A stretch of DNA of 64,000 nt. Source: Candidatus Bathyarchaeota archaeon RBG_16_48_13. Lineage in GTDB: Archaea; Thermoproteota; Bathyarchaeia; RBG-16-48-13. The notes beneath the pieces are model-generated. The model did not search any database. It had not been told where the DNA came from and was given only the letters and a program-made list of their open reading frames with translations. Positions 10,790 through 35,499 of this stretch are shown here, piece after piece. Made by a program: the position numbers and the translations under genes. How positions within the stretch are numbered: the first letter of the stretch is position 1; the number at the start of each line of letters is the position of its first letter. Where the stretch lies: contig MEZH01000001.1 in NCBI GenBank assembly GCA_001775995.1, positions 25,460-89,459 on the forward strand, given 5' to 3'.

Positions 10790-10879
10790 TGGTGGGGCCG
10801 CCCGGATTTGGACCGGAGTCACGTGGGCTCTCGCCAAGTCCCGAGCCACGTAGCCTAGACCAAGCTAGCCGACGGCCCC
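10790..10879 (-). tRNA. tRNA-Pro(CGG), one ~12-nt canonical intron, CCA encoded
   Basis: Reverse complement folds as GGGGCCG TC GGCT AGCTTGGTCTA GGCT A CGTGG CTCGGG[12-nt intron] CCACG TGAC TCCGG TCCAAAT CCGGG CGGCCCC A CCA. Confidence 0.85.
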
Positions 10880-23506: not shown

Positions 23507-23517
23507 CATCAGTATAG

Positions 23518-23606
23518 AGCCTCGGGTGGGATTTGAACCCACGATCAATGGCTTTCCTTAAGATATCGTACAAGGCCATCGCTCTGCTGGGCTAAGCTAC
23601 CGAGGC
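23518..23606 (-). tRNA. tRNA-Thr(UGU), one canonical ~15-nt intron, no encoded CCA
   Basis: GCCTCGG TA GCTT AGCCCAGCA GAGC G ATGGC CTTGTA[intron]A GCCAT TGATC GTGGG TTCAAAT CCCAC CCGAGGC T. Confidence 0.85.
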
Positions 23607-29213: not shown

Positions 29214-29301
29214 TGGTGCGGAGGAAGGGATTTGAACCCTTGGACTCCTGCGAGACAAGGTCCTGAGCCTTGCGCCTTTGACCAAACTTGGCTACCTCCG
29301 C
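29214..29301 (-). tRNA. tRNA-Leu(CAG), intronless, CCA encoded
   Basis: GCGGAGG TA GCC AAGTTTGGTCAAA GGC G CAAGG CTCAGGA CCTTG TCTCGCAGGAGTCC AAGGG TTCAAAT CCCTT CCTCCGC A CCA. Confidence 0.9.
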
Positions 29302-29424
29302 TGCAAACTAACCATAAGGGATATGCTCTCTCCCTTAAATATCATTACTTAGAAAGAACAGAAACATTTCCAATTGAGAATCTTTTGAGTAAAGTGGACG
29401 AAATTGAGTTTAGCTTTAGAAAGA

Positions 29425-29512
29425 TGGTGCGGGGAGTGGGACTTGAACCCACGAAGGCCTGCGCCATAGGAGCCTCAGTCCTACTCCTTAGACCTAGCTC
29501 GGAAATCCCCGC
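29425..29512 (-). tRNA. tRNA-Leu(GAG), intronless, CCA encoded
   Basis: GCGGGGA TT TCC GAGCTAGGTCTAA GGA G TAGGA CTGAGGC TCCTA TGGCGCAGGCCTTC GTGGG TTCAAGT CCCAC TCCCCGC A CCA. Confidence 0.9.
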
Positions 29513-32338: not shown

Positions 32339-33346
32339 TCAAGCGTTCTCTTCAATTCTTGGGATTATATCTTCGTCAAGAAACCTAATCATCTTTTTCA
32401 TATCTGCTCCAAGCGGAAATACTAGGTTGAACTCATCTATTCCTTTCTCTATGTATGCTCTAAAACGCCTCAGGCATTCTTGGGGAGTTCCCGTGATGGA
32501 GAGTTTCTCAACTACCTCATCTGATATTAGCTCGGAAGCCTTGTCCCAGTTGGGTACAGCATTCTGTATCGCTGCAACCTCTTCTAGGCCTATCTTGGCC
32601 ATCTCCAACATCTGGTGTGGAGCCATTATCAGAAACTGAGGAAATGGAAAACGCTTGACTATGTTCCTCGCTGCATCACCATCCTCCGAGATCATGCACA
32701 TTATGCAGTTTGCGTACCGAAAATTCTTCCTCCTGCCAGCAGTCTTTAGACCTTCTCCAACCTTGTTGATAGCATATCCAACGTACTCAACAGGCACCCC
32801 GTCTAAGAGAACTCCGTCAGCAACGCTCCCTGCTATCGTCATCATCCTTGGCCTGCGGCAAGCTAGATAAATAGGCACTTCAGCTGGTCTTCGGTCAAGA
32901 AGGTGAGCCTCATGAGTCTCAAAAATCTCACCATCGTATGTGAGTTTCTCACCAGTCAGAATTCTCCTAACGATCTCTATGGTTTCTCTGCAACGTTTAA
33001 CAGGCTGGTCCCATTTCATGTTGATGGCAGCAAGCATTTCTCTACTTCCAGCTCCAAGAGCTAAGAGAGCTCGTCCTCCGGAAATTTCGTTCAGATAGCC
33101 TATGGAAAAAGCTGTAACAAATGGATCGCGGGTGTATGGGTTGGTGGCTCCCAAGGCTAGTTCAACTCTCTTTGTTTCCCAGGCCATAATGTTTAGTATG
33201 GCGTATGGATCAGCATGAACCGCTCCGTCACCTGTCCAGACAGTATCAATTCTTGATTCATCAGCGATCTTGCAGAACTCCTTTATCTCTTTCAAGCCGC
33301 CTCTGCTTATTGTAAAGGGTATTCCAGCTACTCCGAATTTGACCAT
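32339..33346 (-). CDS. Luciferase-like (LLM) F420-dependent oxidoreductase, Mer-like (paralog)
   Basis: 335 aa. NPYTRDP, GRALLALGAGS, VPIYLACRR. Same architecture as 31311-32315. Confidence 0.7.
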   Translation of the reverse strand: MVKFGVAGIPFTISRGGLKEIKEFCKIADESRIDTVWTGDGAVHADPYAILNIMAWETKRVELALGATNPYTRDPFVTAFSIGYLNEISGGRALLALGAGSREMLAAINMKWDQPVKRCRETIEIVRRILTGEKLTYDGEIFETHEAHLLDRRPAEVPIYLACRRPRMMTIAGSVADGVLLDGVPVEYVGYAINKVGEGLKTAGRRKNFRYANCIMCMISEDGDAARNIVKRFPFPQFLIMAPHQMLEMAKIGLEEVAAIQNAVPNWDKASELISDEVVEKLSITGTPQECLRRFRAYIEKGIDEFNLVFPLGADMKKMIRFLDEDIIPRIEENA

Positions 33347-33718
33347 ATACTAGACCTTAATGTTCAAGTTAAAGATCATTTTCGTTGACATGTAATTTTT
33401 CTTGAGATGAAGTCGCCAGAATTCTGCAACACACAGAATTCTTCTTCCAATTTATGTCATAGAATTCAAAATGGAAAGATAGAGTATGAAAAAACTCTGA
33501 CGGAAATATTGACAATGGTAATTGTCGAGTGAAAAGAATCATTTTGAAAAATAATAACATGTACTGTTTTCGCGGAATGTAGCACGGAAAATTTAAAGTT
33601 GGAAGGGCTTGCGGCCGGATTTGCCAAATGACGATATGAAGGAGTTATGAACCTGCAGATTTGTAGCATGGCGGCACGCGCGCTCATGATAATTAATACT
33701 TTTGTTCTTTTCAAAGAG

Positions 33719-34193
33719 GGTACCAGTATGATACCAAGCGATGACAGGGTCTCCAGTGGTACTACCACCACCCATCGGGGGTGTGTGGGTTTGTCCAGTA
33801 CCCGGATGTGGTAAATCATACCCACTTGCGAATTAGGGGTGAGTGGAATGGCAGGGGGTGGCATATCTCAAAAGGAAGACTGGACCACCCGGGTACCAGT
33901 GGGTAGTATACCAGTGGTTTACCAGTGGTACCGGTAGGTACCTGTAGTATACCGGGGAGGATCCCGGAAGTACTGGTGGTACCGGGGGTGGTACCCAAAA
34001 ATACCAGTGAAGTACCAGGGGCCCCAGCGAGTACCGATTAAGAGCTAAACGACACACTCAGCGATCCTATAGGTGGTTCTGGGGACTCTGAAGACCCCAA
34101 TAGTGGTTCAACTGACGGTGAAGTGGGGTAAGGTACCAGGGTGGGACCACCCACCAGGTCAAACCAAGGGGCTGGGTACCGACCAGGCCTACC
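33719..34193. repeat. Degenerate short-repeat array, TACC(AGTGG) core, with eight GGTACC palindromes
   Basis: GGTACC starts at 33719, 33892, 33927, 33937, 33978, 33990, 34132 and 34175. TACCAGTGG is exact at 33894, 33909 and 33920, with at least six near copies. In the core (33894-34021) TACC/TACT recurs every 9-15 nt. No credible ORF. Confidence 0.8.
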
Positions 34194-34411
34194 ACCCAGG
34201 TTCGCCTTTGACCCTGCCTCCATTCTAACATATATCGACAAATACATTGACGAGAAACTCAAGAATGCGTTGAAGACAAGGGGTGCTGGGAGTTCCAAGT
34301 TCGAGGGGAGCGGACCGATGTACTACGAGGAGGATGGGATACGGGTCTGGGAAACAAAAGACAACAACGCGCGCGCTCGGCTGCTTATTAATGTATTGAC
34401 CCCACGGATTA

Positions 34412-34528
34412 TGGCGGGCCCGGCAGGATTCGAACCCGCGACTTCAGGCTCTCTCCACCTACAGAGGTGCCGAAGGCTTGCGCAATCTCTCCAGATTCTG
34501 CGCCCTATCCTGACTAGGCAACGGGCCC
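34412..34528 (-). tRNA. tRNA-Arg (UCG anticodon tentative), two ~20-nt introns, CCA encoded
   Basis: GGGCCCG TT GCCT AGTCAGGATA GG[20]GC G CAAGC CTTCGG[19]A GCCTG AAGTC GCGGG TTCGAAT CCTGC CGGGCCC G CCA. One A-C mismatch in the anticodon stem. Confidence 0.65.
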
Positions 34529-34633
34529 TAGAAATCTCTTTCATCAAGTGTTATGGCTATTTCAGACTTGAATCTATCGGTCTCATAGGATATCAATGTT
34601 TATTAACCAATTCTGCTCCATTCAGATTTTGGT

Positions 34634-34820
34634 CCCGAGGTAGCTCAGAGCTCACGGGAACAAAACCCTTGAACGGGTAACCTGGTAGAAAAGTGCCCAA
34701 GGTTGGGCCACGCCAAAAGCTTCCGGCTGTAGGCATTTGCCATGAAGTGCAAGTACTACTCAGCCTATCAGGCTAACAGATACCGGAGTGTCAGGTGTTC
34801 AATTCACCTCCTCGGGACCA
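34634..34820 (+). tRNA. tRNA-Tyr(GUA), three introns (32, 29 and 49 nt), CCA encoded
   Basis: CCCGAGG TA GCTC AG[32]CCTGGTA GA[29]GC T TCCGG CTGTAG[49]A CCGGA GTGTC AGGTG TTCAATT CACCT CCTCGGG A CCA. Exons sum to exactly 77 nt and give a perfect cloverleaf. Confidence 0.85.
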
Positions 34821-34986
34821 CATGTCAATATAAAAAAGATGAGTCCATAGATTTTCTTCGCTAATAGACAATAACCCAACGAAATAGGCATTATGTACCA
34901 CCCCCAGCCTAGTCTAATAGAAAGTTTAAATATCTCATAGAGATTGCAGAAAAGGGATGTCGCTCTCCTATGGATAGGCTGAAAAC

Positions 34987-35499
34987 ATGAGGGGAAAATG
35001 TTACAGATTTTCAAAAGGGATGGCATATACTAGAAAGAAGTACATCCACGGTTCGCCCCAGAACAAAATCTCCAAATTCACTATGGGAGACCCAGCGGGT
35101 AGCTTTGACCTTCGGGCATCTTTGATAGTCTTGGATGGGGGCCAAATCCGCCATAACGCCTTGGAGGCAGCTAGAATCGCATCCAACAAGGTCTTATTTG
35201 ATAAACTTGGAGAGAAGGGATATTGTTTAAGAATCATGGTTTACCCGCACATGATCCTCCGAGAGAATAAAATGATGGCATTCGCTGGAGCTGATCGACT
35301 TCAAGAGGGAATGAGAAAAGCATTTGGCAAACCTATAGGCAGCGCTGCGAGAGTTAAACCGGACCAGGTAATAATAATCTCAGAGGTACCCTCCGCGGCC
35401 TTGGATTTAGTTAAAGTATCAATGAGAGTTGGATCTTCCAAGATCCCTCTTCCATGCAGAGTTGAGATAGTCAAACTCGAGAAAGCCATCGCACCATGA
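34987..35499 (+). CDS. rpl10e: Ribosomal protein uL16 (L10e)
   Basis: 170 aa. RGKCYRFSKGMAYTRKKYIHGSPQNKISKFTMGD and MRKAFGKPIGSAARV are typical of L10e. Confidence 0.9.
   Translation: MRGKCYRFSKGMAYTRKKYIHGSPQNKISKFTMGDPAGSFDLRASLIVLDGGQIRHNALEAARIASNKVLFDKLGEKGYCLRIMVYPHMILRENKMMAFAGADRLQEGMRKAFGKPIGSAARVKPDQVIIISEVPSAALDLVKVSMRVGSSKIPLPCRVEIVKLEKAIAP

What the first reader, a model, noticed from the sequence alone, without database searches (positions are those of the whole stretch)
33668..34396. Helically phased TACC(AGTGG)/GGTACC repeat array in a ~0.7 kb non-coding island beside tRNA-Arg
There is no credible ORF between the LLM oxidoreductase gene (ends 33346) and tRNA-Arg (3' end at 34412), yet the sequence is highly ordered.
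- Eight GGTACC palindromes fall within 462 bp (starts 33719, 33892, 33927, 33937, 33978, 33990, 34132, 34175).
- TACCAGTGG is exact at 33894, 33909 and 33920, with near copies at 33721, 33752, 33971, 34002, 34013 and 34134.
- In the core, TACC/TACT starts at 33894, 909, 920, 929, 939, 950, 971, 980, 992, 34002 and 34013. That is a mean spacing of about 10.8 nt, roughly one helical turn.
- The spacings (9, 10, 11, 12, 15) are not multiples of 3 and the motif falls in different codon phases, so this looks like a DNA- or RNA-level signal rather than a peptide repeat.
- The island is bracketed by an imperfect direct repeat: ACGCGCGCTC-N5-TAATTAAT at 33676-33697 and ACGCGCGCGCTC-N6-TTATTAAT at 34367-34392.
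- It also contains stop-riddled ORF fragments in shifting frames, for example ...FDPASILTYIDKYIDEKLKNALK....

Candidate interpretations: a centromere- or iteron-like protein-binding array, or the remnant of an element integrated next to the tRNA.
Basis: partly seen in the sequence, partly recalled or inferred. Interest (0 to 1): 0.7.

Follow-up and report, generated by a model that had tools for sequence, protein, structure and literature searches.

The report
Decayed orphan gene inserted beside tRNA-Arg
The striking GGTACC/TACC repeat is real, but it is the low-complexity middle of a broken, strain-variable orphan gene on a 736-bp segment that is present or absent at the 3' end of tRNA-Arg, not a free-standing non-coding signal.

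Summary
Eight of the window's 15 GGTACC sites lie in 462 bp. No dinucleotide shuffle reached the observed motif counts. TAC[CT] starts are phased at about 10.4 bp (p about 0.006).

The context changes the reading:
- A relative (L169) has an empty site: its LLM-tRNA spacer runs straight into tRNA-Arg.
- The window carries 736 extra bp (33675-34410). They are bounded by a 7-bp direct repeat, ATGGCGG, whose right copy is the tRNA's CCA end.
- A second allele (L201/L202) is only about 70% identical, yet sits in flanks that are 96-97% identical. It also has 8 GGTACC sites.
- In L202 one + strand frame runs from an ATG (equivalent to window 33728) through the whole array to the segment's end, with a single TAG.
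- The window's copy of that frame is dead: indels plus TAG 33904, TAA 34039 and TAA 34129.
- The product is rich in Gly, Pro, Ser and Thr, has one predicted helix and has no homologues.
- TACC is read in three codon phases (Gly-Thr, Val/Ile-Pro, Tyr). This points to a 9-11-nt DNA unit expanded inside a tolerant coding region.

The "integrated remnant" idea is supported. The "centromere/iteron" idea is not supported, though it is not excluded. I rate this a new member of a known kind, of modest interest.

The parts
33668..33674 (.). Left copy of the 7-bp direct repeat ATGGCGG. It marks the junction with the ancestral LLM-tRNA spacer.
   Evidence: The L169 spacer aligns with window 33347-33674 and then continues into tRNA-Arg. 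This copy has decayed in close strains: ATAGCGG in L170 and ATGGCAG in L204.
33675..34410 (+). The 736-bp strain-variable segment (the 'island'). It is absent from L169, and a 70%-identical allele is present in L201/L202.
   Evidence: empty site versus filled site; second allele. Against L170 it diverges by 17.7 differences per kb, compared with 4-4.7 per kb in neighbouring genes.
33676..33697 (+). Left terminal motif ACGCGCGCTC-ATGA-TAATTAAT. The AT-rich part may serve as a TATA-like box about 30 nt upstream of the ATG (inferred).
   Evidence: Homology with allele B (L202) begins exactly here. The motif is unique to the island within the window. The promoter role is inferred by eye only.
33716..33730 (+). 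Shine-Dalgarno-like GAGGG (33716-33720) followed by ATG at 33728-33730. This is the putative start of the cassette ORF.
   Evidence: Conserved in all alleles. In L202 this ATG opens the 201-codon frame.
33728..34410 (+). Cassette ORF (orfX), a pseudogene in this allele. It is broken by indels near 33745, 33836 and 33877, and by TAG 33904-33906, TAA 34039-34041 and TAA 34129-34131. There is no stop codon before the end of the segment.
   Evidence: Translations and alignments. In L202 the same frame has 1 stop in 201 codons, against 5, 16, 9, 2 and 6 in the other frames; 1.8% of shuffles do as well in any frame. The window's two TAA stops are GAA in L201/L202.
33886..34035 (.). Core of the GGTACC / TACC(AGTGG) array, with spacings of 9-21 nt and phase about 10.4 bp.
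34207..34278 (+). Best-conserved coding stretch, FDPASILTYIDKYIDEKLKNALKT. It is the only predicted helix.
   Evidence: 59% amino-acid identity to P0126 over 37 residues that span this stretch. AlphaFold2 on P0126 predicts a helix at residues 67-89 with pLDDT 80-87, and about 50-58 elsewhere.
34367..34392 (+). Right sub-terminal copy of the motif (ACGCGCGCGCTC-N6-TTATTAAT), 18 nt inside the right junction.
   Evidence: It is shortened to ACGCGCGGGCTATT, directly abutting ATGGCGG, in allele B.
34411..34417 (.). Right copy of ATGGCGG. It is the complement of tRNA-Arg's 3' end (CC-G73-CCA) plus one base.
   Evidence: It is identical in the window, L170, L201, L202 and the empty site L169.
34412..34528 (-). 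tRNA-Arg(UCG) with an encoded CCA and two introns (29/30 and 37/38). It is intact in all alleles.
   Evidence: Rfam tRNA, 38 bits. Splitting by hand gives the anticodon arm CAGGC-CUUCGGA-GCCUG. All differences in L169 fall in the two predicted introns. ARAGORN in intron mode instead calls Gln(CTG) with an implausible long variable arm.
34141..34680 (+). Publicly called 179-aa 'gene' (P0001). It is the tail of orfX read on through the antisense of tRNA-Arg, so it is a spurious gene call.
   Evidence: L170 has a 2-bp insertion at 34157 inside it. In allele B the read-through enters the tRNA in a different frame.

Best explanation
The array is the low-complexity middle of a decaying, strain-variable, single-gene segment that sits at the 3' end of tRNA-Arg(UCG).

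Shown:
1. 33675-34410 (736 bp) is an insertion/deletion polymorphism. A relative has the spacer joined directly to the tRNA. The segment is bounded by a 7-bp direct repeat, ATGGCGG, which duplicates the tRNA's CCA end.
2. Two alleles exist. They differ by about 30% plus many indels, yet sit in flanks that are 96-97% identical. So the segment has been exchanged or re-acquired horizontally rather than diverging in place.
3. The segment has gene anatomy. After the AT-rich part of its left end motif come GAGGG, then ATG at 33728, then one + strand frame that runs through the array to the last base of the segment without a stop.
4. In allele B (L202) that frame is open except for one TAG. In the window it is broken by several indels and three nonsense codons.
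5. The product is rich in Gly, Pro, Ser and Thr, has one predicted helix, and has no detectable family.

Inferred:
- The GGTACC/TACC words are one 9-11-nt DNA unit multiplied by replication slippage inside a disordered-linker coding region. Such a region tolerates it because all three readings (GGT-ACC Gly-Thr, GTA/ATA-CCN Val/Ile-Pro, x-TAC-C Tyr) give linker-like residues.
- The roughly 10.4-bp phase follows from the unit length. It is not evidence of selection for one face of the helix.
- The segment arrived by site-specific integration at the tRNA's amino-acid-acceptor end, using a recombinase supplied in trans (a 7-bp core matches a tyrosine-recombinase overlap region). Alternatively it was swapped in by homologous recombination through the conserved tRNA and LLM flanks.
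- It now does nothing for the cell.
For: Empty and filled sites:
- The L169 spacer aligns along window 33347-33674 and then enters tRNA-Arg. The window and L170 carry the extra 736 bp.
- In a more distant relative the LLM-L10e gap is 722 bp, against 1640 bp here.

Second allele:
- L201: island 69.6% identical with 80 gap columns, flank 96.8% over 6.1 kb.
- L202: island 71.8%, flank 95.9% over 7.2 kb.
- Flank third-codon positions differ by 72 of 1179, or 6.1%.

Coding frame:
- L202 positions 220-822 have 1 stop in the + frame, against 5, 16, 9, 2 and 6 in the other frames. Only 1.8% of 3000 dinucleotide shuffles have any frame with at most 1 stop.
- The window's TAA 34039 and TAA 34129 align to GAA in allele B. 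Allele B's TAG aligns to TGG in the window.
- HMMER against 1.84 billion representative proteins found only P0126, which is this same ORF in allele B.

No constraint now:
- Against L170 the island diverges at 17.7 differences per kb. The non-coding spacer diverges at 24 per kb and genes at 4-4.7 per kb. The differences include 1-bp and 2-bp indels.
- Mismatches between alleles A and B are spread evenly over codon positions.

Composition:
- GC at codon positions 1/2/3 is 0.56/0.54/0.47, against 0.51/0.39/0.46 for host genes. The high GC therefore comes from amino-acid content (31 Gly, 24 Pro, 22 Ser and 14 Thr of 201).
- The phase signal is weaker in allele B: best R = 0.67 at 9.3 bp, p = 0.047.

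Known precedent:
- Archaeal and bacterial integrases do use the tRNA 3' end. [quoted passage not shown]
Against: - No recombinase, replication or partition gene lies in the segment, and none was found among the neighbouring genes checked.
- A 7-bp repeat is very short for an att site. By my own estimate, a pair of this length somewhere in the two boundary zones has roughly a 30% probability by chance.
- The open frame in L202 is only moderately significant (p about 0.02). No purifying selection is visible, so the sequence may never have encoded a functional protein.
- Every sampled copy carries at least one inactivating lesion.
- Both alleles keep exactly 8 GGTACC sites despite 30% divergence. 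Codon choice is strongly bent towards GTACC: GTA is 9 of 13 Val codons (host 25%), ACC is 9 of 14 Thr (host 27%), GGT is 15 of 31 Gly (host 22%). That is what DNA-level selection on the word would also produce.
- The left flank of allele B in L202 is unrelated to the window's spacer, so the 736 bp may be only the end of something larger.
Confidence: 0.5

Rival explanations
1. The segment is an ancestral host gene, not an arrival. The relatives that lack it (L169 and the P0005 genome) lost it by microhomology-mediated deletion between two chance ATGGCGG copies. The nature of the array (a low-complexity coding repeat) is the same as in the best explanation; only the direction of the event differs.
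For: - Third-codon-position GC of orfX (0.47) equals the host's (0.46), so there is no foreign composition.
- No mobility gene was found.
- By my own estimate, a 7-bp microhomology pair somewhere in the boundary zones is not rare.
- Deletions do occur at this locus: L204 lost 258 bp of the spacer, and L082 lost 14 bp inside LLM.
- The divergence between alleles A and B (about 30%) is at least as deep as the window-L169 divergence at third positions (64 of 336, or 19%).
Against: - It needs two independent losses (L169 and the more distant P0005 genome) against one gain.
- It still needs horizontal exchange to put alleles that differ by 30% into flanks that differ by 3-4%.
- The ORF has no stop codon of its own and runs into the antisense of the tRNA in different frames in the two alleles. 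That is odd for a resident gene.
- The right-hand repeat is exactly the tRNA's terminal CCGCCA.
Confidence: 0.2
2. The phased GTACC array is a functional protein-binding site of a small mobile element, such as a partition centromere, replication iterons or a recombination enhancer. Dimers would bind TACC-N3-GGTA palindromes on one face of the helix. The overlapping ORF would be secondary or accidental.
For: - Phase of 10.4 bp, p about 0.006.
- The words are palindromic (GGTACC, TACCAGTGGTA, TACCGGTA).
- Both alleles have 8 GGTACC and 17-19 TACC despite 30% divergence and many indels.
- The word falls in all three codon phases and dictates rare codon choices.
- The host genome otherwise under-uses GTAC (1.7 per kb for the whole window, against about 3.8 per kb expected from base composition; and my arithmetic).
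Against: - A reading frame passes through the whole array in L202.
- No rep, par or int gene is nearby.
- Only 3 of the 8 GGTACC sites are at aligned positions in both alleles. By my own estimate that fits neutral decay of a once more perfect repeat.
- The phase signal is weak and shifted in allele B (9.3 bp, p = 0.047).
- Nothing similar was found in the phage or plasmid collections, nor in viral contigs apart from unrelated phages that share an 11-nt unit.
- The core array (33880-34045) is unchanged between the window and L170, but three SNPs occur in it in L083.
Confidence: 0.15
3. The sequence never coded for anything. It is a short satellite-like DNA repeat with unique flanks, carried along as junk, and the open frame in L202 is a chance product of its stop-poor composition.
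For: - Mismatches between the alleles are uniform over codon positions.
- All copies are interrupted.
- The L202 frame is significant only at about 2%, and an antisense frame has just 2 stops.
- No homologue exists outside this locus.
Against: - The start context (AT-rich box, GAGGG, ATG) is conserved in all alleles.
- Nonsense codons in one allele are sense codons in the other, in the same frame, at three places.
- A 24-residue stretch within a 37-aa match that is 59% identical forms the only confident predicted helix.
Confidence: 0.1
4. The ORF is the N-terminal fragment, int(N), of an SSV-type 'suicidal' integrase whose gene was split by integration into the tRNA. The rest of the element has been deleted.
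For: - The ORF reads outward across the junction into the tRNA with no stop codon, as int(N) fragments do (principle in PMC8371274 and PMC7253208).
- In L202 different DNA abuts the left end, which might be a longer element.
Against: - There is no similarity to any integrase or other family in Pfam, PHROGs or the PDB.
- The product is Gly/Pro/Ser/Thr-rich and predicted to be unstructured.
- The repeat is 7 bp. By my recollection the SSV1 att site is about 44 bp; this was not tested here.
- The junction frame differs between the alleles.
Confidence: 0.03

Closest known systems
tRNA-adjacent integrated elements and their remnants in archaea (tyrosine-recombinase att sites at the tRNA 3' end; 'cryptic integrated elements')
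   Same: - Sits immediately 3' of an intact tRNA gene.
- Bounded by a direct repeat whose tRNA-side copy is part of the tRNA.
- Present or absent among close relatives.
- A 7-bp core equals the overlap region of tyrosine recombinases. Use of the acceptor end as attB is documented (PMC8371274).
   Different: - Only 736 bp with one broken ORF.
- No integrase anywhere in view.
- The repeat is 7 bp, whereas tens of bp are usual.
- Base composition at silent sites is host-like.
Flexible or hypervariable genomic islets next to tRNA genes, with old alleles in young flanks
   Same: - Alleles 30% apart sit in flanks 3-4% apart.
- Assemblies break at this locus in many samples.
- A second variable patch lies nearby at 34823-34986.
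   Different: - Such islets usually carry functional surface or defence genes.
- Here the single gene is inactivated in every copy seen.
Plasmid centromeres and iterons (for example the 11-bp repeats of R1 parC, bound by a ribbon-helix-helix protein; recalled from memory, not tested)
   Same: Short words repeated about every 10-11 bp over roughly 150 bp, some of them palindromic.
   Different: - No adjacent par or rep gene.
- The words are imperfect and irregularly spaced (9-21 nt).
- They lie inside a reading frame.
- The phase is not well kept in the second allele.
Archaeal origin recognition boxes (ORB; core dyad ...CCAGTGG...; recalled from memory)
   Same: The window allele has four CCAGTGG cores, and an AT-rich stretch lies beside them (33350-33600, 33% GC).
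   Different: - No orc1/cdc6 among the ORFs checked.
- The AT-rich stretch is the ancestral LLM-tRNA spacer, not part of the segment.
- Allele B keeps only one CCAGTGG.
- The spacing and orientation are unlike ORB pairs around an unwinding element.

Membership tests
Site-specifically integrated element at a tRNA gene | Empty site in a related genome with the same flanks | tested here: met
   L169: the spacer homologous to 33347-33674 continues directly into tRNA-Arg. In the P0005 genome the gap is 722 bp, against 1640 bp here (gene table only, no DNA).
Site-specifically integrated element at a tRNA gene | Direct repeats (att core) at both ends, one inside the tRNA, with the tRNA left intact | tested here: met
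   ATGGCGG lies at 33668-33674 and 34411-34417, and the tRNA is intact. Caveat: the repeat is only 7 bp. No longer partial tRNA copy exists in the window.
Site-specifically integrated element at a tRNA gene | Integrase or recombinase gene in the element | tested here: not met
   Only one ORF fits in the 736 bp, and it matches no Pfam, PHROGs or PDB entry. The neighbouring genes checked are housekeeping genes.
Site-specifically integrated element at a tRNA gene | Excision or circular form | not testable with these tools
   This needs read-level data from the metagenomes that carry the locus.
Insertion sequence / MITE | Terminal inverted repeats, target-site duplication and multiple copies | tested here: not met
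   - No inverted repeat joins the two ends.
- The end motifs are direct repeats.
- No other copy exists in the 64-kb window or in the fetched loci.
- A 7-bp duplication is present.
Plasmid/viral centromere or iteron array | Regular array of near-identical repeats | tested here: inconclusive
   - Word enrichment and a 10.4-bp phase are significant in the window.
- Tandem Repeats Finder sees only two units of about 2 copies each.
- Spacings are 9-21 nt.
- The phase is weaker in allele B.
Plasmid/viral centromere or iteron array | Adjacent gene for the binding protein (Rep, ParB/ParR-like) | tested here: not met
   No such gene is in the segment or beside it.
Plasmid/viral centromere or iteron array | Specific protein binding | not testable with these tools
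   This needs EMSA or DAP-seq.
SSV-type split integrase fragment, int(N) | Sequence homology to SSV-family integrases | tested here: not met
   No integrase family was hit at E up to 5. HMMER against 1.84 billion representatives gave only the same locus plus repeat-driven chance hits.
Structured non-coding RNA | Match to a known RNA family, or folding energy well below shuffles | tested here: not met
   Rfam at E up to 1 found only the tRNA. Folding z-scores were -0.72 (+ strand), -1.64 (- strand) and -1.75 (core, as DNA).
Archaeal replication origin (ORB + DUE + orc1/cdc6) | orc1/cdc6 nearby and ORB elements conserved in relatives | tested here: not met
   No Orc1/Cdc6 among 27 ORFs scanned. 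CCAGTGG drops from 4 copies to 1 in allele B. The whole segment is absent from L169.
Protein-coding gene (now a pseudogene) | One frame distinctly open in at least one allele, with lesions in one allele being sense codons in the other | tested here: met
   L202 has 1 stop in 201 codons, with p about 0.018 against shuffles. TAA/GAA at two places and TGG/TAG at one.
Protein-coding gene (now a pseudogene) | Excess of third-position change (purifying selection) | tested here: not met
   Mismatches between alleles A and B at codon positions 1, 2 and 3 were 20, 17 and 23 of 58 each, and 11, 14 and 15 of 43 each. For the LLM gene (window versus L169) the counts were 22, 22 and 64 of 336.

The most novel reading that the evidence does not exclude
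The 0.74-kb segment is a complete, minimal, non-autonomous integrative cassette of a kind not yet described in archaea.
- It would have a single gene plus end motifs (ACGCGCGCTC...TAATTAAT).
- It would insert at the CCA end of tRNA-Arg through a 7-bp core, using a recombinase supplied in trans.
- Its ORF would be closed only in the circular form. In allele B, joining the right end to the left end gives ...GYYGGARVHDN-TAA, a stop 7 codons past the junction (my reading).
- The phased GTACC array would be the binding platform for the recombinase or a partner protein.
- The (CG)n end motif also turns up as a 10-bp filler at an independent deletion junction in L204, and at the point where L202's flank changes. 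That hints the ends are recombinationally active.
Probability: 0.07. Interest if true: 0.75.

Novelty: new member of a known kind. Interest (0 to 1): 0.3.

Why it matters
For annotation:
- The 179-aa 'gene' in public databases (34141-34680) is an artefact that runs antisense through a tRNA.
- The GC-rich island is a pseudogene, not an RNA or a regulatory array.

For biology:
- The locus is a small, clean example of a tRNA-adjacent hot spot in a poorly sampled TACK archaeon.
- Public metagenomes show at least four structural states: empty, allele A, allele A with a spacer deletion, and allele B with a different left flank.
- It also shows how a 9-11-nt DNA repeat can grow inside a coding region and imitate a helically phased binding array. 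That is a useful caution for sequence-only scans.

If the minority reading were right, it would be a very small mobile cassette with a 7-bp tRNA-end target, which would be new.

Tried and rejected
- **Structured RNA.** Rfam at E up to 1 found only the tRNA. Folding z-scores were unremarkable. Rejected.
- **Replication origin (ORB-like CCAGTGG).** No orc1/cdc6 was found in the scanned ORFs. The skew profile follows gene orientation. The motif is not kept in allele B and the segment is absent from L169. Rejected.
- **A longer att site.** I looked for a second partial copy of the tRNA in the window and found none.
- **Homology of the ORF fragments.** All of these came back empty or with a self-hit only:
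  - Pfam and PHROGs.
  - PDB.
  - tblastn against phages.
  - The word-indexed 5.8-billion-protein search (self-hit only).
  - Viral contigs, by peptide and by DNA patterns.
  - blastn against plasmids and phages.
- **TACCAGTGG-NN-TACCAGTGG in viral contigs.** This hit 30 contigs, but they share only an 11-nt unit and nothing else with the island. Unrelated.
- **Synteny through the species-representative genomes and the JGI metagenome collection.** No relative closer than 60-62% L10e identity was found, and none had the tRNA or the island. The useful relatives came instead from exact-protein look-ups.
- **P0125 and P0127.** These hits from the representative search are driven by repeats in giant proteins and were set aside.
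- **Look-ups that did not help.** L205 did not reach the junction. L204 has only 301 bp upstream of LLM, which reach the island only because 258 bp of the spacer are deleted there.
Full report
**1.

- The gap between the luciferase-like (LLM) oxidoreductase gene (32339-33346, minus strand; Pfam Bac_luciferase) and the tRNA (34412-34528, minus strand; Rfam, 38 bits) is 1065 bp.
- Eight of the window's 15 GGTACC sites lie at 33719-34180. TACCAGTGG is exact three times, and only here.
- In 2000 dinucleotide-preserving shuffles of 33668-34396, no shuffle reached the observed counts:

| Word | Observed | Shuffle mean | Shuffle maximum |
|---|---|---|---|
| GGTACC | 8 | 0.79 | 5 |
| TACC | 19 | 5.0 | 14 |
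| CCAGTGG | 4 | 0.13 | 3 |

- The 12 TAC[CT] starts of the core are phase-concentrated at 10.4 bp (R = 0.77). After scanning periods of 5-20 bp, p is about 0.006.
- One 300-bp stretch holds 25 TACC/GGTA words, against a window mean of 1.76 and a next-best of 6.
- GC is 53% against 44% for the window.
- The bracketing motif ACGCGCGCTC occurs only at the two ends of the island.
- Tandem Repeats Finder reports only two short arrays, with periods 11 and 10 and about 2 copies each.

**2. What it is not**

- Rfam at E up to 1 finds nothing but the tRNA.
- Folding energies are ordinary, with z-scores of -0.72, -1.64 and -1.75.
- The CCAGTGG core recalls archaeal origin recognition boxes. However, 27 ORFs scanned in the window are housekeeping genes with no Orc1/Cdc6. 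The later comparisons also remove this idea.
- No second partial copy of the tRNA exists in the window.

**3. The organism and its relatives**

- Ribosomal protein L10e (34987-35499) is at most 60-62% identical to anything in the species-representative genomes or the JGI metagenome collection. The best hits are Bathyarchaeia and Hecatellales. None of those loci has this tRNA or the island.
- Exact-protein look-ups were more useful.
- The same locus is in GCA_035256105.1, identical over 7 kb.
- It is also in three ENA assemblies at 99.7-99.9% identity.
- Closer relatives of L10e and of the LLM protein exist in other assemblies.

**4. Empty site**

- L169 (ENA ERZ27247709) has an LLM protein 88% identical to the window's. 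It carries LLM, a 375-bp spacer, tRNA-Arg and the next tRNA.
- Its spacer aligns along the whole of window 33347-33674, ending ...ATTTATAGTT-ATGGCGG. It then continues GCCCGGCAGG..., which is the tRNA.
- The window has ...ATTTGTAGC-ATGGCGG followed by CACGCGCGCTC... and 736 further bases. It reaches ...CACGGATT-ATGGCGG-GCCCGGCAGG only at 34411.
- The variable segment is therefore 33675-34410. It is bounded by a 7-bp direct repeat whose right copy is the complement of the tRNA's CC-G73-CCA plus one base.
- The left copy is already mutated in close strains: ATAGCGG in L170 and ATGGCAG in L204.
- In a more distant relative (L10e 81% identical; a 237-kb JGI contig for which only the gene table was available), the LLM-L10e gap is 722 bp against 1640 bp here. 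That leaves no room for the segment.

**5. Not under constraint now**

L170 is 99.4% identical overall to the window. The differences fall as follows:

| Region | Differences per kb |
|---|---|
| Island | 17.7 |
| AT-rich spacer | 24 |
| Neighbouring genes | 4-4.7 |

- The differences in the island include a 1-bp and a 2-bp indel.
- The 2-bp indel lies inside the publicly called 179-aa 'gene' P0001 (34141-34680). That gene is simply an open frame running on through the antisense of the tRNA.

**6. A second, much older allele**

- A full HMMER search of 1.84 billion representative proteins, using the + frame of 34132-34410 as query, returned one real relative, P0126.
- P0126 is 59% identical over a 37-aa stretch containing FDPAxxLTxIDKYxDEKLKNAxKT.
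- Its C-terminus, GPGRIRTRDFRLSPP..., is the same tRNA-Arg read antisense in another frame.
- P0126 is encoded in L201 (ENA ERZ27256988), in the same synteny.

| Contig | Flank identity to window | Island identity to window | Source |
|---|---|---|---|
| L201 | 96.8% over 6.1 kb | 69.6%, with 80 gap columns | |
| L202 (JGI 3300048689; holds the whole allele) | 95.9% over 7.2 kb | 71.8% | |

- In L201, third-codon positions of five flanking genes differ by 72 of 1179, or 6.1%.
- The island alleles are therefore about five times more diverged than silent sites beside them. They are at least as diverged as the window and L169 are at third positions of LLM (64 of 336).
- They cannot have diverged in place. 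The segment has been re-acquired, or swapped by recombination.
- Allele B also has exactly 8 GGTACC and 17-18 TACC, again mostly 9-11 nt apart. Its overall phase is weaker: best R = 0.67 at 9.3 bp, p = 0.047.

**7. It is (or was) a gene**

- In L202 one + strand frame runs from ATG (equivalent to window 33728) through the whole array to the last base before ATGGCGG. It spans 201 codons with a single TAG.
- The other five frames have 5, 16, 9, 2 and 6 stops. Only 1.8% of 3000 dinucleotide shuffles have any frame with at most one stop.
- Upstream, all alleles share ATGATAATTAATAC...GAGGG..ATG. I read this as a TATA-like box, a Shine-Dalgarno-like element and a start codon; that is inference.
- The window's TAA at 34039 and at 34129 are GAA in allele B. 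Allele B's TAG is TGG in the window.
- Allele A additionally has frame-breaking indels near 33745, 33836 and 33877, and TAG at 33904.
- L201 differs from L202 by two 1-nt indels in the array. These may be further lesions or assembly errors.
- The product is rich in Gly (31), Pro (24), Ser (22) and Thr (14) out of 201 residues.
- AlphaFold2 on P0126 predicts only one helix, residues 67-89 at pLDDT 80-87. This was a single-sequence run, so it is weak evidence.
- The protein matches nothing in Pfam, PHROGs or the PDB.
- GC at codon positions 1/2/3 is 0.56/0.54/0.47, against 0.51/0.39/0.46 in host genes. The island's high GC therefore comes from its amino-acid content, not from foreign base composition.
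- Mismatches between the alleles are spread evenly over codon positions. No purifying selection is visible.

**8. The array inside the gene**

- In the L202 frame the words read CAG-GTA-CCA-GGT-ACC-AGT ... AGG-TAC-CAG ... ATA-CCC-GAA-ATA-CCT-GAA-AAT-ACC-AGT.
- TACC is thus Val-Pro or Ile-Pro in one phase, Gly-Thr or Asn-Thr in another, and Tyr in the third.
- In the window's main frame, 6 of 11 TACC words are (Val/Ile/Leu)-Pro and 5 are x-Thr (my count).
- Codon choice is bent to the word:

| Codon | Use in orfX | Host share |
|---|---|---|
| GTA (Val) | 9 of 13 | 25% |
| ACC (Thr) | 9 of 14 | 27% |
| GGT (Gly) | 15 of 31 | 22% |

- The repeat is therefore a DNA unit of 9-11 nt, not a peptide repeat.
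- Even so, it lives inside a reading frame that tolerates it, because all three readings give linker-type residues.
- Only 3 of the 8 GGTACC sites are at aligned positions in both alleles. By my own estimate this is what neutral decay of a once more regular array would give. It is also compatible with turnover under selection for word density.
- I therefore rank 'slippage-generated low-complexity coding repeat' first, and 'functional binding array' as a live minority rival.

**9. How it got there (inferred)**

- The tRNA 3' end is a documented class of integration site. [quoted passage not shown]
- One gain in the clade of the window, L170, L201, L202 and L204 is more parsimonious than two losses (L169 and the P0005 genome).
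- Several points count against a classical element:
  - There is no recombinase gene.
  - The repeat is only 7 bp.
  - Silent-site composition is host-like.
- The ORF lacks a stop codon and leaves the segment in different frames in the two alleles.
- That fits a gene cut by the recombination site, but it has no similarity to SSV-type integrases.

**10. The locus is a structural hot spot**

- L204 has lost 258 bp of the spacer (33346-33603), including the LLM start codon. A 10-bp filler, AGCGCGCGCT, at the junction resembles the island's end motif.
- In L202 the DNA to the left of the island is unrelated to the window's spacer. Homology starts exactly at AGCGCGCGTTC-ATGATAATTAAT.
- Many assemblies break at or near this locus.
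- These facts keep open a small probability that the segment is an active minimal cassette whose ends recombine.

**11. Verdict**

- The 'centromere/iteron in non-coding DNA' interpretation is not supported, because a reading frame spans the array in a relative.
- It is not excluded, because the word is a DNA-level unit kept at the same density in both alleles.
- I class this as a new member of a known kind: a tRNA-adjacent variable islet or integrated remnant carrying a decaying orphan gene. Interest is modest.

Noticed in passing
window 34634-34822 (+): A second tRNA lies between tRNA-Arg and L10e. Default ARAGORN and Rfam at E up to 1 both miss it. ARAGORN in intron mode calls tRNA-Tyr(GTA) at 34696-34820 with a 49-nt canonical intron and an A-C mismatch in the acceptor stem. 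The conserved 62 nt upstream begin CCCGAGG, which pairs perfectly with the 3' strand CCTCGGG. This suggests a second intron inside the acceptor stem (CCCG | 62 nt | AGG...). The region is 88-96% conserved in relatives whose L10e is 83% identical.
   Followed up: partly
window 34412-34528 (-): tRNA-Arg(UCG) appears to have two introns, at 29/30 (20 nt) and 37/38 (19 nt). All differences in L169 fall within these two stretches. ARAGORN in intron mode miscalls it as Gln(CTG) with a long variable arm.
   Followed up: partly
window 34823-34986: The spacer between tRNA-Tyr and L10e is 18% diverged between the window and L201. The adjacent tRNA region is 0-1% diverged and the genes 1.5-5%. This is a second mosaic or hypervariable patch next to the tRNA pair.
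   Followed up: no
L204 (positions 242-252); window 33346-33603: One strain has lost 258 bp of the LLM-tRNA spacer together with the LLM start codon. The junction carries a 10-bp filler, AGCGCGCGCT, which resembles the island's terminal motif.
   Followed up: partly
L202 1-165: The DNA to the left of the allele-B island is AT-rich, has stops in all frames, and matches neither the window's spacer nor any fetched locus or viral contig. It could be the interior of a larger element or a rearranged flank. The contig ends there.
   Followed up: partly
L082; window 33210-33223: One assembly has a 14-bp deletion inside the LLM gene, which splits it into 292-aa and 56-aa calls.
   Followed up: no
L171-L200 (IMG/VR contigs): Several unrelated phage groups carry 2-4 tandem copies of an 11-nt unit, TTTACCAGTGG or GTTACCAGTGG. 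One group is a family of roughly 40-kb contigs with about 40% GC. They share nothing else with the island.
   Followed up: partly
whole window: GTAC is under-represented genome-wide, at about 1.5 per kb outside the island. About 3.8 per kb is expected from base composition (plus my arithmetic). The island has 19 per kb.
   Followed up: no
window 10790-10879, 23517-23606, 29214-29512: Four of the five tRNAs found by ARAGORN (all but tRNA-Thr cgt) are 88-90 nt long. Together with the two multi-intron tRNAs above, this suggests a lineage rich in tRNA introns.
   Followed up: no
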